A DNA stretch of 64,000 nucleotides from Octopus vulgaris (taxonomy: Eukaryota), in contig OX597815.1 in NCBI GenBank assembly GCA_951406725.2, positions 44,702,001 to 44,766,000 on the forward strand, written 5' to 3'. Position numbers and translations under genes: made by a program. Below the pieces are notes generated by a model. The model made no database searches, was not told the DNA's origin, and saw only the letters and a program-made list of their open reading frames with translations. Within the stretch, counting starts at the first letter, position 1. Each line of letters opens with the position of its first letter. Below, piece by piece: positions 5,875-62,985 of the stretch.

Positions 5875-7480
5875 TTGAATAAGAGAAAAACCACTATTAG
5901 GCAAATCATACAATGAAAAACTTAAGCCAATACATAAGATTAATTAATTTATATTATTTTAAATATATATCAAAATTATTAAAAAAAGATAATGAGTATA
6001 ACACTACGATCGTTTCATGGCTGTCCAATTCGTAAAAATTCGAGTTACAGTCAATCTTCAGGTGATTGAAATATCTAAGATATAATCAGAAATATTTAAA
6101 CAATATTTTTAAGATATAAATAATATATATAATATAATAATTTTACTTATAATAAACTCTATTATCAAACTAGAGACATAGAACTTAACAATTATGATTA
6201 TATCCAAATCGACTATAATGTTAAATATTAATTTTAATTTATAAGGTAAGAAACCCACCCATAATCTAATATCAATATTAGTCTATATCTAATTACATAA
6301 ATATTTAAAATGACTAATATATATAAATTATCAATGAAAATATATAAATGTATATAAATATTATAATTAAGATCTAAAATAATCTCTATAAATAATTGTA
6401 TATGCACATATAATAAAAACCTAATAAATTTAATTTTTCAAATTTAAAGATGAAATAGCTAATTTCAAAATACAAATAAACTAACTTAAACGAACTTTCG
6501 GAAATCTTATGTAAAATACTTTTAGAAATAATCAATTCGTAGTAATATAGTATCGAATAAATACTATAAATACTATAAATATAATTATCAATGGGAATAA
6601 TTATCGAATATAAATTTAAAGAAATAACTAAGTTATGCTATTAAATTAGACATGGCCTGGACCAATCTTTAGTCGAAACATATCTAAGTTTATCAAAGTT
6701 TATCTAATTTAATTATAAATTTAAAACTACAATTAATACTATTAAAAACATGTATATACAAAGCCTAACTTAATACACCTCGTATGCTTGCTATCAAATA
6801 ACAAATCTATCGCTAGGAAGTATCTTACGAATAAACTTAAATTTAATATCTAATAATATAGATAATTACGATAATTAGATCATTACATAAACAACGATAT
6901 TTACATAAGGAGAATATTATTACTCCAAAGGCTTATACAATATTAAAATTTACAATTTGAAGATCTTAAATAAATACATATTTATCTTAGCGAGGTTTAA
7001 CAATGAACTAAAATTTTGAATCAGAAAACGTCTTTTACAGCGTTTATAAGAATACTCGTGGAATTACGTTATTAACAACAAAAAAAAAAGAATAAATTGT
7101 TGAAGAATTCATTACGCGTGAGGACCCTACGTTTTATTAAAGATTGTGAATGGGAAAATTATTTGTTTATCATTGTAAATAGAATGAAATCACAAATAAA
7201 GAATAAAATCTCTCCATACTATAATATTTATTAATAAAATAACTATGATAAATGAAACTTAATACAAAATAAATTAAATGATTTAAATGATTAAAAACCA
7301 CTAATTATTAAATATATTCTAAAAATCTTATAAGATTAATAAATATATAAAAATTTATTTATATAGTAACCCCTCAACATACTATAAATTCTTTCCCATG
7401 CCCTTATAATAATAAGCTAAAATTAGTGATCATAACAAAATCTATAAATACTTATCAAAATTTGTAGTATAACTATACAT
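5875..7480 (-). mobile_element. Very AT-rich non-coding element ending in a hammerhead (putative non-autonomous PLE derivative)
   Basis: About 1.6 kb of non-microsatellite, strand-biased AT-rich sequence bounded by (TA)n tracts, with an HHR near its 3' end on the minus strand. Confidence 0.5.
6002..6064 (-). ncRNA. Minimal type-I hammerhead ribozyme
   Basis: Minus strand reads CAC-CUGAAGA-U-UGACUGU...ACAGCCA-U-GAAAC-GAUC-GUA-GUG. The core is intact, stem II has one mismatch, stem III is the palindrome ACGAUCGU, the cleavage triplet is GUA and stem I is CAC/GUG. Confidence 0.75.
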
Positions 7481-13854: not shown

Positions 13855-14155
13855 ACTGACACACCATTGGTTACGATTACGAGGGTTCCAGTTGATCCGA
13901 TCAAGCTGCTCGTGAAATATACGTCCAAGTGGCTGAGCACTCCACAGATACGTGTATCTTTAATGTAGTTCTCAGGGAGATTCAGCGTGATACAGAATGT
14001 GACAAGACCGGCCCTTTGAAATACAGGTACTGCACATTTTTGCCAGCTGAATGGACAGGAGCAACGTATCTTGCTCAAGGATACCACGCGCCGCCGGGAA
14101 TTGACCATACGATCAGCAGTCGAATACCCTAAACACCAAGCCATGCGCCTTCACA
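13855..14155 (-). mobile_element. SINE family C copy (tRNA-like head, CORE-like ttgagcaaga domain)
   Basis: Reverse complement has head gaaggcgcatggcttggtgtttagggtattcgac, then ttgagcaaga and tail ctgaatctccctgagaactac...gagtgctcagccactt...gaaccctcgtaatcgtaacc. Homologous to 16425-16750 and 62657-62985. Confidence 0.8.
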
Positions 14156-14627
14156 ACTTTACAAATTCAACGTCTGAAAATATAGTGGCATGGTTGCAGC
14201 TAGCAGGACATTTGACTCTAAGTTTGTTGGATCAGAACTGAATTAAGGTTAAATAAGAACAACAATGACATACATAAAGTGCAATTTAAATGTTGTGTTG
14301 TTATTGTGACCAAGTTTGGGATGGTCAGATATTGTTGTGGGAGACAGATATAAGAGCTATTGACAATCATTCTCATAATCTCGTCTGAGATTGTGCAAGG
14401 ATGAAGAGGTGGGACAAGTCAGGAAAAAATTAAGTTGAGAATAGGAAATGGATTGAATTATGTTCGTATGTATGTTAGTGTCTATGTGCGTGTTCCTATT
14501 CACCCAGTAGTCTACACAGAAATCAGTAATTATATGATACTGTGGCATCATCAACTGTTCATTCACCAGGGTGTTTCCAATTTTCTTTTTTATATCTTGT
14601 ACATCTTAATATTGTTTTACTCCTATG

Positions 14628-16424: not shown

Positions 16425-16750
16425 AGCGCAATCGCGATTTCAATTCCCAGACCGGGCGTTATGAGTGTTTATTGTTCGAAAACACCTAAAGCTCCACGAG
16501 GCTCCGGCAGCGTGTGGTGTCGAACCCTGCTACACTCTTTCACCATAACTTTCTCTCACTCTTTCTTCCCGTTTCTGTTGTATTTGTATTTCAAAGGACT
16601 AGCCTTGTCACACTCTGTGTCACGCTCAATCTCCCTGAGAACTACGTTAAGGGTACACTTGTTTATGGAGTACTCAGCCACTTGCACGTTAATTTCACAA
16701 GCAGGCTGATCAACTGGAACCCTCGTCGTCGTAACCAACAGAGTGCCACG
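16425..16750 (+). mobile_element. SINE family C-related copy
   Basis: caattcccagaccgggcgtt...gtcacgctcaatctccctgagaactacgttaagggtacac...gaaccctcgtcgtcgtaacc. Confidence 0.75.
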
Positions 16751-20586: not shown

Positions 20587-20613
20587 ATATAAGGTTTGTG
20601 TAGTCTATTGAGT

Positions 20614-20940
20614 GAAGGCGCATGGCTCAGTAGTTAGAGAGTCGGTCTCACAATCATGAGGTAGTGAGTTCGATTCTCGGACCGGGTTGTGTGTTGTGTT
20701 CTTGAGCAAGACATTTTATTTCACATTGCTCTAGTTCACTCGTCGCTGGTACCAAGTTGTATCGGTATTTGCCTTTCCCTTGGATAACATCGGCGGCGTA
20801 GAGAGTGGAGACTGGCATGCATGGGCAACTGCTGTCTTCCATAAACAACCTTGCCTAAACTTGTGCCTCGGAGGGAAACTTGCTTATTCATAACTGAAAG
20901 GGATTATTCTCTTGGTTATTCATGACTGAAAGGGGTCTAT
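20614..20940 (+). mobile_element. SINE family C variant
   Basis: A-box tggctcagtag, B-box gagttcgattc, then ttgagcaagacattttatttcacattgct. Confidence 0.8.
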
Positions 20941-58439: not shown

Positions 58440-58700
58440 GTGGAGGCGTGTGGCCTTAGTGGTTAGGGTGTTGAACTCATGATCGTGAGGTTGTGGTTTC
58501 GATTCCTGGACCGGGCGATGCGTTGTGTTCTTGAGCAAAACACTTCATTTCACGTTGCTCCAGTTCACTCAGCTGGCAAAAATGAGTAACGCTGCGATGG
58601 ACTGGCGTCCCGTCCCGCTGGGGAACACATACGCCATAGAAACCGGGAAACCGGGCCCATGAGCTTGGCTAGGCTTTAAAAGGGCGCATTTATTTATTTT
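58440..58700 (+). mobile_element. Well-preserved SINE family C variant
   Basis: A-box tggccttagtgg, B-box gtttcgattcc, ttgagcaaaacacttcatttcacgttgctccagttcactcagctg, (TTTA)n tail. Confidence 0.85.
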
Positions 58701-61720: not shown

Positions 61721-62104
61721 TGCATTGAATATCTACAGGAGTTAGATTAGAAACGCATCCAAAATATGCTGGGAAAATCTATTATAGAGAAAATATGATA
61801 CTGAATTCCCCAATACCAATGTTACGAAGATTGTGATAATGATAGACTAGTTTACTGGTAATAATCATGATTTGAAGTGCTGGAACAAAAAAAAAAGCAA
61901 GATGATTTGGGTATGATATTCTGTTACTGTGAATTGATGTAAGCGCCATATTCTAGAAGTAACTTCTATACGACGATAAACCAAAAACTGAACCTTCATC
62001 CCAGTTATTGTCTCTTCAGTTCTATATTTAAGAGATGAGGAATTATGTACATTATTTACATTATTTACATTTGCCGGATATTTGTCCTCATCTTTTTTGT
62101 TGTC

Positions 62105-62146
62105 AACACTACGTTTCGGCTGATATACCCTCCAGCCTTCGTCAGG
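62105..62146 (-). ncRNA. Minimal hammerhead ribozyme (left arm; 5' strand of stem I deleted)
   Basis: C-CUGACGA-A-GGCUG-GAGGGUAUAU-CAGCC-GAAAC-GUA-GUGUU. Confidence 0.7.
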
Positions 62147-62186
62147 TTCGAACCTGGGTTCTCATTCCTAAGGTATTTTTGGATGC

Positions 62187-62278
<92 letters not shown>

Positions 62279-62435
62279 TCACTGCCTCGAATCGAACTCG
62301 GAATCTTGGGGCTGGTAGCCCGTACTCTTAACCACTACGCCATATGCTCGTGCATATGGCGTAGTGGTTAAGTAGCTCTCAGGGAGATTCAGTGTGGCAC
62401 AGAATGTGATAATAATAATAATAATAATAATAATG

Positions 62436-62495
<60 letters not shown>

Positions 62496-62542
62496 TCAAA
62501 AAATACCTTAGGAATGAGAACCTAGGTTCGAAATTATCCCAA

Positions 62543-62588
62543 GACACCTGACGAAGGTTGGAGGGTATATCAGCCGAAACGTTGTGTT
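62543..62588 (+). ncRNA. Minimal type-I hammerhead ribozyme (right arm)
   Basis: GACAC-CUGACGA-A-GGUUG-GAGGGUAUAU-CAGCC-GAAAC-GUU-GUGUU. Stem I is GACAC/GUGUU, stem II has 5 bp and stem III is the loopless palindrome AACGUU. Confidence 0.8.
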
Positions 62589-62656
62589 AACAACAAACAA
62601 GATGAGGACAAATATCCGTCAATTGTAAATAATGTAAATAATTGTCTCTTCAGTTG

Positions 62657-62985
62657 TGAAGGGACATGGCTTACTGGTTAGGGGTATGTGGCTCACGATC
62701 GTAAGGTCGCGAGTTTGATTCCCGGCGGCACGTTGTGTCCTTGAGTAAGATACTTTATCTCTCGTTGTTCCAGTTCACTCGCTTGGCAAAAAATAAATTG
62801 TACCTATATTTTAAAAGGCCAGACCATGTCATATCCTGTGTCACACTGAATCTCCCTGAGAGCTACGTTAAGAGTATGCATGTCTGCGGAGTGCTCAGCT
62901 ACTTGCACGTTAATTTCACGAACAGGGTGTTCGGTTAATCGGATCAATTGCAACCCTCTTCGTCGTGACCGACGGAGAACCAGTT
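62657..62985 (+). mobile_element. SINE family C copy
   Basis: gaagggacatggcttactggttagggg...gagtttgattcccggc...ctgaatctccctgagagctacgttaag...caaccctcttcgtcgtgaccgacggag. Confidence 0.82.

What the first reader, a model, noticed from the sequence alone, without database searches (positions are those of the whole stretch)
62008..62655. Candidate ribozyme-armed SINE: tRNA-like Pol III head, (AAT)n and hammerhead, inserted as a head-to-head palindrome with a flanking duplication
Seen: read outward from the centre, the left unit is a tRNA-like head (A-box TGGCGTAGTGG, B-box GAGTTCGATTC), an (AAT)n tract, a minimal hammerhead (CUGACGA...GAAAC-GUA) and a tail ending ...taaataatgta. The right unit mirrors it from a perfect 21-bp-arm hairpin at 62327-62372, but swaps in about 35 nt of family C SINE tail (ctcagggagattcag.gtg..acagaatgtga) before its (AAT)n and an intact HHR. 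The whole is bracketed by the 15-bp direct repeat attgtctcttcagtt. Known: Penelope-like elements carry minimal HHRs with palindromic stem III that cleave as dimers and produce inverted 5' repeats; schistosome Sm-alpha is a precedent for a tRNA-derived repeat containing an HHR. Inference: this is a non-autonomous Pol III-driven retrozyme/SINE that uses self-cleavage to define its 3' end and borrows PLE RT. The fold-back and the chimeric arm would then record self-priming and template switching.
Basis: partly seen in the sequence, partly recalled or inferred. Interest (0 to 1): 0.82.

Follow-up and report, generated by a model that had tools for sequence, protein, structure and literature searches.

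The report
Penelope retrotransposon carrying a tRNA-like promoter

Summary
The anatomy is real, but it is not an independent SINE. The head–(AAT)n–hammerhead–tail unit is the pseudo-LTR of a high-copy Poseidon-type Penelope-like element (PLE). The head follows the RT–endonuclease ORF in 26 of 30 loci. The tail runs into the ORF start in 28 of 30. Hammerhead and tail are read in frame. The palindrome, the one-sided 35–45 nt tail and the target-site duplication are standard PLE insertion features, seen in dozens of copies. Self-cleavage does not set the 3' end: ends lie 50–95 nt past the cut. The left hammerhead lacks stem I. The new part is the tRNA-derived head inside the pseudo-LTR, absent from 80 other PLE loci (a hammerhead was located in only 20). 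Of 90 head-bearing copies, 71 begin within 9 nt of it, against about 5% expected. This points to a Pol III start site, inferred and not shown. The ORF strand also lacks T4 terminators (P 0.01–0.04), weakly allowing Pol III transcription of the whole element. RNA-seq was uninformative.

The parts
62007..62021 (+). Left target-site duplication; last 5 nt double as the element's distal end (microhomology)
62017..62050 (-). PLE 'tail' extension, present on the left arm only (distal RT start site, inferred)
   Evidence: Frangieh 2024
62051..62187 (-). Left arm hammerhead and tail region (ORF 5' end of the PLE); 14-nt deletion removes the 5' strand of stem I, ribozyme probably dead
62188..62275 (-). 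(AAT)n tract of the left pseudo-LTR
62277..62349 (-). Complete tRNA-derived head with A box (62332-62342) and B box (62289-62297); family head aligns best with a tRNA-Arg(TCT) gene among 25 genome tRNAs compared
62327..62372 (.). Central perfect hairpin, 21-bp arms; grown from a native 5-bp hairpin at the head's 5' edge in the full element
62352..62372 (+). Fold-back stub of the head (A box only, no B box)
62372..62408 (+). 37-nt filler copied in antisense from another SINE family, probably from the neighbouring copy (shares a private allele)
62409..62495 (+). (AAT)n tract of the right pseudo-LTR
62514..62642 (+). N-terminal coding frame of the PLE ORF (ATG at 62514; one stop in this copy), running through hammerhead and tail
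62543..62588 (+). Intact minimal type I hammerhead: stem I 62543-47/62584-88, core 62548-54, bulged A 62555, stem II 62556-60/62571-75, GAAA 62576-79, palindromic C-G 62580-81, predicted cut after 62583
   Evidence: definition
62589..62641 (+). Right arm end, short class without tail (proximal RT start site, inferred)
62641..62655 (+). Right target-site duplication
62656..62985 (+). Neighbouring tRNA-type SINE of another family; its 62829-62871 segment is the likely donor of the filler

Best explanation
The locus is a short, two-armed insertion of the pseudo-LTR of a Poseidon-type Penelope-like retrotransposon whose pseudo-LTR contains a tRNA-derived head, and that head likely works as an internal RNA polymerase III promoter that makes the short template RNA. 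Shown: the order ORF-head-(AAT)n-hammerhead-tail-ORF; a sharp 5' boundary of copies at the head; two discrete 3' ends, one per arm; target-site duplications; both arms from the same source lineage. Inferred: Pol III starts about 6 nt before the tRNA +1 position, so the RNA begins with a 5-bp hairpin. The element's own RT-endonuclease nicks both target strands and primes one cDNA from each, at its two internal start sites, as shown in vitro for the Anolis element. The left cDNA ran to the RNA 5' end and folded back for about 21-26 nt. The right cDNA stalled in (AAT)n. The gap was bridged by 37 nt copied from a SINE next to the target site. The hammerhead was read through uncut and set neither end.
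For: Head follows the ORF end in 26 of 30 endonuclease-selected, 13 of 13 RT-selected and 20 of 22 protein-selected loci that reach it (the sets overlap). The tail precedes the ORF start in 28 of 30 loci; L215 is a partial tandem. RVT_1 hit; C-terminal domain similar to a PF01541-bearing relative, E 2e-13. The right arm's frame matches the N-terminus of PLE protein P0019, E 4e-6 for the pair. 71 of 90 position-ordered head copies start within 9 nt of the probe and 19 extend 20-1600 nt; 4.6% expected from the truncation rate beyond, P about 1e-76. 41 of 47 two-armed copies have exactly one tail. Arms of one insertion share non-majority letters at 7.4% against 2.8% for shuffled pairs; the window is the only C/C pair at a column where C is 14 of about 307. 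The filler shares with the neighbour a C seen in none of 19 other distinct copies. Two-strand extension, two RT starts and a dispensable hammerhead are reported for the Anolis element. No T4 run in 2469 majority columns of the sense strand.
Against: No Pol III transcript was seen: three RNA-seq runs give equal depth on both strands, a profile that follows copy number, and no sharp start or end. The 5' boundary is spread over about 10 nt (26 copies at -1 to +3, 20 at -2 to -7, 25 folded back) and coincides with a native hairpin, which could itself cause the stop. The T4 result is weak (P 0.039 and 0.013), and the closest control PLE (L316) is also T4-free in its ORF without any A or B box. The filler lacks two of the neighbour's own alleles (34 of 37 identity, others up to 33). 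The one mapped Penelope promoter is a LINE-like TATA-less one.
Confidence: 0.6

Rival explanations
1. Ordinary Pol II-driven PLE that passively captured a tRNA or SINE head in its 3' UTR; the sharp 5' boundary comes from cDNA snap-back at the native hairpin or from RNA processing at the tRNA-like 5' edge, with no working Pol III promoter.
For: A native hairpin sits exactly at the boundary; 25 of 71 head-start copies fold back there; no element-specific RNA start was seen; (AAT)n attracts other insertions, so capture is easy; the known Penelope promoter is LINE-like.
Against: 46 of 71 head-start copies stop there without a fold-back of 8 nt or more. A 5-bp hairpin is unlikely to displace an RNA-DNA hybrid unless the RNA ends there (inference). 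The acceptor stem needed for tRNA-like processing is not retained (read from the sequence). Both boxes are intact in the family.
Confidence: 0.3
2. One reading: an independent non-autonomous Pol III SINE or retrozyme that borrows PLE RT and uses self-cleavage to define its 3' end.
For: Short head-start units far outnumber ORF-linked ones, 71 to 19; tRNA-derived, hammerhead-bearing Sm-alpha exists; some solo units may themselves be sources, which I could not exclude.
Against: The whole unit is part of the autonomous element; no diagnostic split between short and ORF-linked units, and both share the same subfamily alleles; 3' ends lie 50-95 nt beyond the cut; 39 of 51 tail-sampled arms read through the whole ribozyme.
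Confidence: 0.07
3. The palindrome and the chimeric arm arose after insertion, by recombination or repair between two independent nearby copies.
For: Arms differ by about 6% and a 14-nt deletion; within-pair mismatch (9.1%) is only slightly below random pairs (10.1%).
Against: One perfect 15-bp duplication brackets both arms; the same architecture recurs in 47 of 90 copies with duplications in 28 of 47; both arms share a rare allele. The filler alone could still be later repair.
Confidence: 0.03

Closest known systems
Poseidon_Ac (PAc) Penelope-like element of Anolis carolinensis (Frangieh et al. 2024, PMC11167929)
   Same: Single RT-endonuclease ORF, hammerhead overlapping the ORF start, two RT start sites bounding a tail, both strands extended, hammerhead not needed for insertion (read: parts 1-2 of 4 of the text).
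   Different: No tRNA-derived head is described in the parts read; here a head and (AAT)n sit in the pseudo-LTR and most copies start at the head.
Canonical EN+ PLEs (Craig et al. 2021, PMC8557442; Cervera and de la Pena 2014, PMC4209133)
   Same: Partial tandems, inverted 5'-truncated partner, 30-40 bp one-sided tail, minimal dimer-type hammerhead with bulged nucleotide, G10.1-C11.1 and palindromic 15.2-16.2 (passages).
   Different: Truncation is concentrated at one site here; the mapped Penelope promoter is LINE-like and TATA-less (PMC2377424 passages); 'tRNA' and 'polymerase III' do not occur in the 2014 paper's main text.
Sm-alpha / Sj-alpha SINE-like elements of schistosomes
   Same: tRNA-related sequence plus hammerhead, thought to be Pol III transcribed (passages of PMC2770079 and PMC6765202).
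   Different: Described as head-to-tail repeats released by cleavage, with no autonomous parent named in those passages; here the unit is part of its autonomous parent, inserts head-to-head and is not delimited by the cut.
TRIMp3 elements Cassandra, Helenus, Ajax (Kojima 2024, PMC10886601)
   Same: Small-RNA-derived Pol III promoter embedded in a terminal repeat, possibly by SINE insertion (passages).
   Different: Those are non-autonomous LTR elements; that paper argues their autonomous partners must use Pol II. Here the tRNA-derived head is in the autonomous, protein-coding element itself, and it is a PLE.
Non-LTR retrozymes (Li et al. 2026 preprint, 10.64898/2026.07.22.740005)
   Same: Non-coding hammerhead units derived from PLE pseudo-LTRs (part 1 of 5 and passages).
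   Different: Defined as head-to-tail tandems; 'tRNA' does not occur in its main text; the units here are mostly inverted pairs or solos.

Membership tests
Penelope-like element, Penelope/Poseidon clade | Reverse transcriptase domain in a single ORF | tested here: met
   RVT_1 E 5.8e-8 in L050; 784-codon open frame in majority columns; a natural 569-aa stop-free RT-EN stretch in L423
Penelope-like element, Penelope/Poseidon clade | C-terminal GIY-YIG endonuclease | tested here: met
   Aligns over the PF01541 region of P0066, E 2e-13; no direct Pfam hit on our own copies
Penelope-like element, Penelope/Poseidon clade | Pseudo-LTR by partial tandem | tested here: met
   L215 and L418 tandems; tail upstream of the ORF start in 28 of 30
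Penelope-like element, Penelope/Poseidon clade | Inverted 5'-truncated partner and one-sided tail | tested here: met
   56 of 90 head loci have an inverted arm; 41 of 47 measurable have exactly one tail
Penelope-like element, Penelope/Poseidon clade | No zinc-finger linker between RT and EN (separates it from Neptune/Nematis) | tested here: met
   None seen by eye in translations; criterion; no tree built
Penelope-like element, Penelope/Poseidon clade | Retained intron in the 5' region | not tested
   Optional feature; not examined
Minimal type I hammerhead | CUGANGA and GAAA cores, stems I and II, bulged base, G10.1-C11.1, palindromic 15.2-16.2 | tested here: met
   Right arm and family majority; left arm lacks stem I; no Rfam hammerhead hit
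Minimal type I hammerhead | Self-cleavage as a dimer | not testable with these tools
   Monomer catalytic fold is unfavourable, +5.4 kcal/mol; the cofold minimum is a different duplex; bench assay needed
tRNA-derived SINE | tRNA-derived head with A and B boxes | tested here: met
   Collinear with genome tRNA genes, best tRNA-Arg(TCT), z 10.4 among 25 tRNAs of 6 amino-acid types; parent provisional
tRNA-derived SINE | Pol III transcription | not testable with these tools
   Only indirect: 5' boundary; RNA-seq lay uninformative
tRNA-derived SINE | Separate non-coding lineage whose head is absent from the autonomous partner | tested here: not met
   Head is in the autonomous element; no diagnostic split; body is coding
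tRNA-derived SINE | 3' end in a simple repeat or poly(A) | tested here: not met
   (AAT)n is internal; ends fall at two unique sites
Non-LTR retrozyme | Head-to-tail tandem units delimited by hammerhead cleavage | tested here: not met
   Mostly inverted or solo; 10 of 135 internal 5' ends near the cut against 5.9 expected, P 0.07
Non-LTR retrozyme | Circular RNA intermediate | tested here: inconclusive
   No joint of the expected size among the 15 shown of 103; library and multicopy mapping unsuitable
TRIMp3 (Cassandra/Helenus/Ajax) | True LTRs with PBS and PPT, non-autonomous | tested here: not met
   Pseudo-LTR of a coding PLE; PBS and PPT were not searched for

The most novel reading that the evidence does not exclude
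The whole autonomous element is a Pol III transcription unit: Pol III starts at the tRNA-derived head in the upstream pseudo-LTR and reads the terminator-free 2.8-kb monomer, so a protein-coding retrotransposon is expressed from an uncapped Pol III RNA and is its own SINE. Consistent with no T4 run on the sense strand, rarity of that among other PLEs (1 of 28 at matched T content), and full-length copies whose upstream repeat begins at the head (L404, L407 among 30).
Probability: 0.25. Interest if true: 0.82.

Novelty: new variant of a known kind. Interest (0 to 1): 0.58.

Why it matters
SINEs normally arise by fusing a tRNA head to the end of a partner element and then live apart from it. Here the autonomous element keeps the head inside its own terminal repeat, so one locus would yield both the coding RNA and a short SINE-like RNA. 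That gives a concrete route from Penelope elements to tRNA-plus-hammerhead repeats such as schistosome Sm-alpha, whose origin is open. The many short two-armed copies are also a large natural test set for the unresolved steps of PLE insertion (second strand, tail, role of the ribozyme). If the whole element is Pol III-transcribed, it would contradict the stated expectation that autonomous retroelements need Pol II. Practically, an estimated 13,000 heads and 30,000 hammerhead arms in this genome are liable to be annotated as SINEs or microRNA-like hairpins (one search gave only sub-threshold miRNA hits).

Tried and rejected
Rfam found no hammerhead or tRNA at this locus or in L082; ARAGORN none in the window. 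Pfam gave no GIY-YIG hit on our copies. A metagenome scan with the endonuclease found nothing; the alignment scan gave only distant PLEs, about 29-48% identical to P0019. Run search: no RNA holder listed; not used as evidence. RNA-seq lay: reads on both strands, no sharp ends. A search for a sister PLE family in the genome as a control returned only this family in the 30 loci fetched. Single fold-back model rejected. Hammerhead-defined 3' end rejected; a hammerhead-defined 5' end is at most a minor class (12 of 408 arms start at 90-93; P 0.07 for the preset window; sample biased toward copies carrying the upstream part). Stem covariation could not be judged, since copies of one family decay neutrally; no covariance model was built. 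Earlier-findings look-ups returned nothing. Literature searches showed no description of a PLE with a tRNA-derived head; Repbase, Dfam, subscription papers and supplements (including the repeat library of PMC13282606) were not seen and may hold the consensus.

Full report
Observation. The left hammerhead lacks stem I through a 14-nt deletion. The left arm extends about 35 nt beyond the right one, and its last five bases coincide with the end of the left duplication.

The unit is a large family. Exact probes give 2007 head hits and 4130 hammerhead hits, with 0 for reversed controls. Exact-match rates in loci not selected by those probes (16 of 108 and 21 of 154) give rough totals of 13,500 heads and 30,000 hammerhead arms. 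Arms differ from the column majority by about 5%.

It is the pseudo-LTR of a Penelope-like element. One tail-selected locus had an endonuclease-like frame directly upstream of the head. That frame has at least 2790 candidates in the genome. The head follows the ORF end in 26 of 30, 13 of 13 and 20 of 22 loci of three overlapping sets. Upstream lies an RT and the C-terminal domain matches a GIY-YIG-bearing relative. At the other end, the tail runs straight into the ORF start in 28 of 30 loci, with clean partial tandems in L215 and L418. The frame from an ATG just before the hammerhead continues through ribozyme and tail into the ORF in natural copies and matches the N-terminus of a PLE protein 57% identical in RT. 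Short units (149) and ORF-linked units (70) have the same majority letter at all 22 variable columns tested; the differences are CpG decay, and the short set is partly biased by exact-match selection.

The insertion architecture is standard PLE. Of 90 position-ordered head loci (two pairs look like local duplicates and were kept), 56 have an inverted arm. Of 47 with both ends measurable, 41 have one full and one short end, 5 two short and 1 two full; ends cluster at 137-152 and 176-184 of a 184-nt reference. Flanking repeats of 9 nt or more occur in 28 of 47, against 0.9% in a null. Craig et al. describe the inverted partner and the one-sided tail (passages). Frangieh et al. show in vitro that the Anolis protein cuts and extends both strands, starts at two internal sites bounding the tail, and does not need ribozyme cleavage (parts 1-2 of 4). 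Arms of one insertion share rare letters more than shuffled pairs (7.4% against 2.8%, 91 pairs), and the window's arms share a rare core allele. Loop orientation does not predict the tailed arm, which favours two cDNAs over one fold-back.

The ribozyme does not set the ends. The family motif fits the minimal hammerhead defined by Cervera and de la Pena (passages). The cut is after reference position 89, yet 3' ends lie 50-95 nt further on, and 39 of 51 arms sampled downstream of the cut read through the whole ribozyme. A small cluster of 5' ends at 90-93 is not significant.

The filler. The 37-nt piece is antisense to a SINE that begins beside the right duplication. It shares with that neighbour a C absent from 19 other distinct copies and a T seen in 2 of them, but lacks two other neighbour alleles. 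Copying from the neighbour during gap repair is likely, not certain.

What is new. The head aligns collinearly with genome tRNA genes, best with tRNA-Arg(TCT) among 25 compared. None of 80 other PLE loci shows an A-plus-B box after the ORF; a hammerhead was located in only 20 of them, many are short or from one data set, and all are distant. 71 of 90 head-bearing copies begin within 9 nt upstream of the probe, against 4.6% expected: 25 fold back 8 nt or more, 20 start 2-7 nt before tRNA +1 and 26 start at about +1. An RNA 5' end there is the simplest cause, and its spacing from the A box fits a type 2 Pol III start (recalled knowledge). A native hairpin at the same spot is the main confounder. 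The sense strand has no T4 run in 2469 majority columns against 30 A4 runs; codon-preserving nulls give P 0.039 and 0.013. Control ORFs are T4-free in 3 of 59, or 1 of 28 at matched T content, but that one is the closest relative and has no boxes. Three RNA-seq runs show reads on both strands with depth following copy number and no sharp ends, as expected from copies embedded in host transcripts; this neither supports nor refutes a Pol III RNA.

Comparison and novelty. It is a member of the Penelope/Poseidon clade and works partly like a SINE, but fails SINE membership on independence and on the 3' end. Nearest analogues are schistosome Sm-alpha (passages), TRIMp3 elements (passages) and PLE-derived retrozymes (part 1 of 5 and passages). 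The Penelope promoter mapped so far is LINE-like (passages). A recent octopus repeat annotation has no mention of hammerheads or ribozymes in its main text (part 1 of 3 and a term search). Eight searches showed no PLE with a tRNA-derived head; papers listed there but not opened were seen as listings only, and Repbase, Dfam and supplements were not seen.

Verdict. PLE pseudo-LTR identity about 0.97; working Pol III start at the head about 0.6; Pol III transcription of the whole coding element about 0.25. New variant of a known kind, interest 0.58.

Noticed in passing
L003, L012, L194; L160, L193; L005, L015, L018, L023, L029, L200, L042, L043, L055: The element's (AAT)n tract is repeatedly joined to the ends of at least three other retroelement families, two with frames recalled as R4/Dong-like; it looks like a landing pad for microsatellite-targeting elements, which would explain many head-less copies.
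   Followed up: partly
L423 (G000:C2:165608907-165610592): A copy with a 569-aa stop-free RT-endonuclease stretch followed by head, hammerhead and short end; most other copies carry stops.
   Followed up: partly
tail region, e.g. window 62625-62642 and 62044-62071: Copy number of a 9-nt repeat varies between copies in steps of three codons; 10 of 12 measured lengths keep the frame, fitting a coding tail.
   Followed up: partly
L254, L260, L395, L401, L405: A few arms begin at or within 3 nt of the predicted ribozyme cut, with almost none in the 20 nt upstream; possibly a minor class of cleaved templates, not significant and confounded by sampling.
   Followed up: partly
window 6012-6061 (-): A second hammerhead-core-like pattern followed by a similar cut-site context, unrelated in sequence to this family; perhaps another PLE remnant.
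   Followed up: no
window 13869-14158, 16578-16743, 20612-20742, 58455-58582, 62656-62985: Further copies of the tRNA-type SINE family that donated the filler.
   Followed up: partly
L082 and L084; L102 and L103; L175-L178: Near-identical insertions with shared flanks at separate positions, suggesting local segmental duplication.
   Followed up: no
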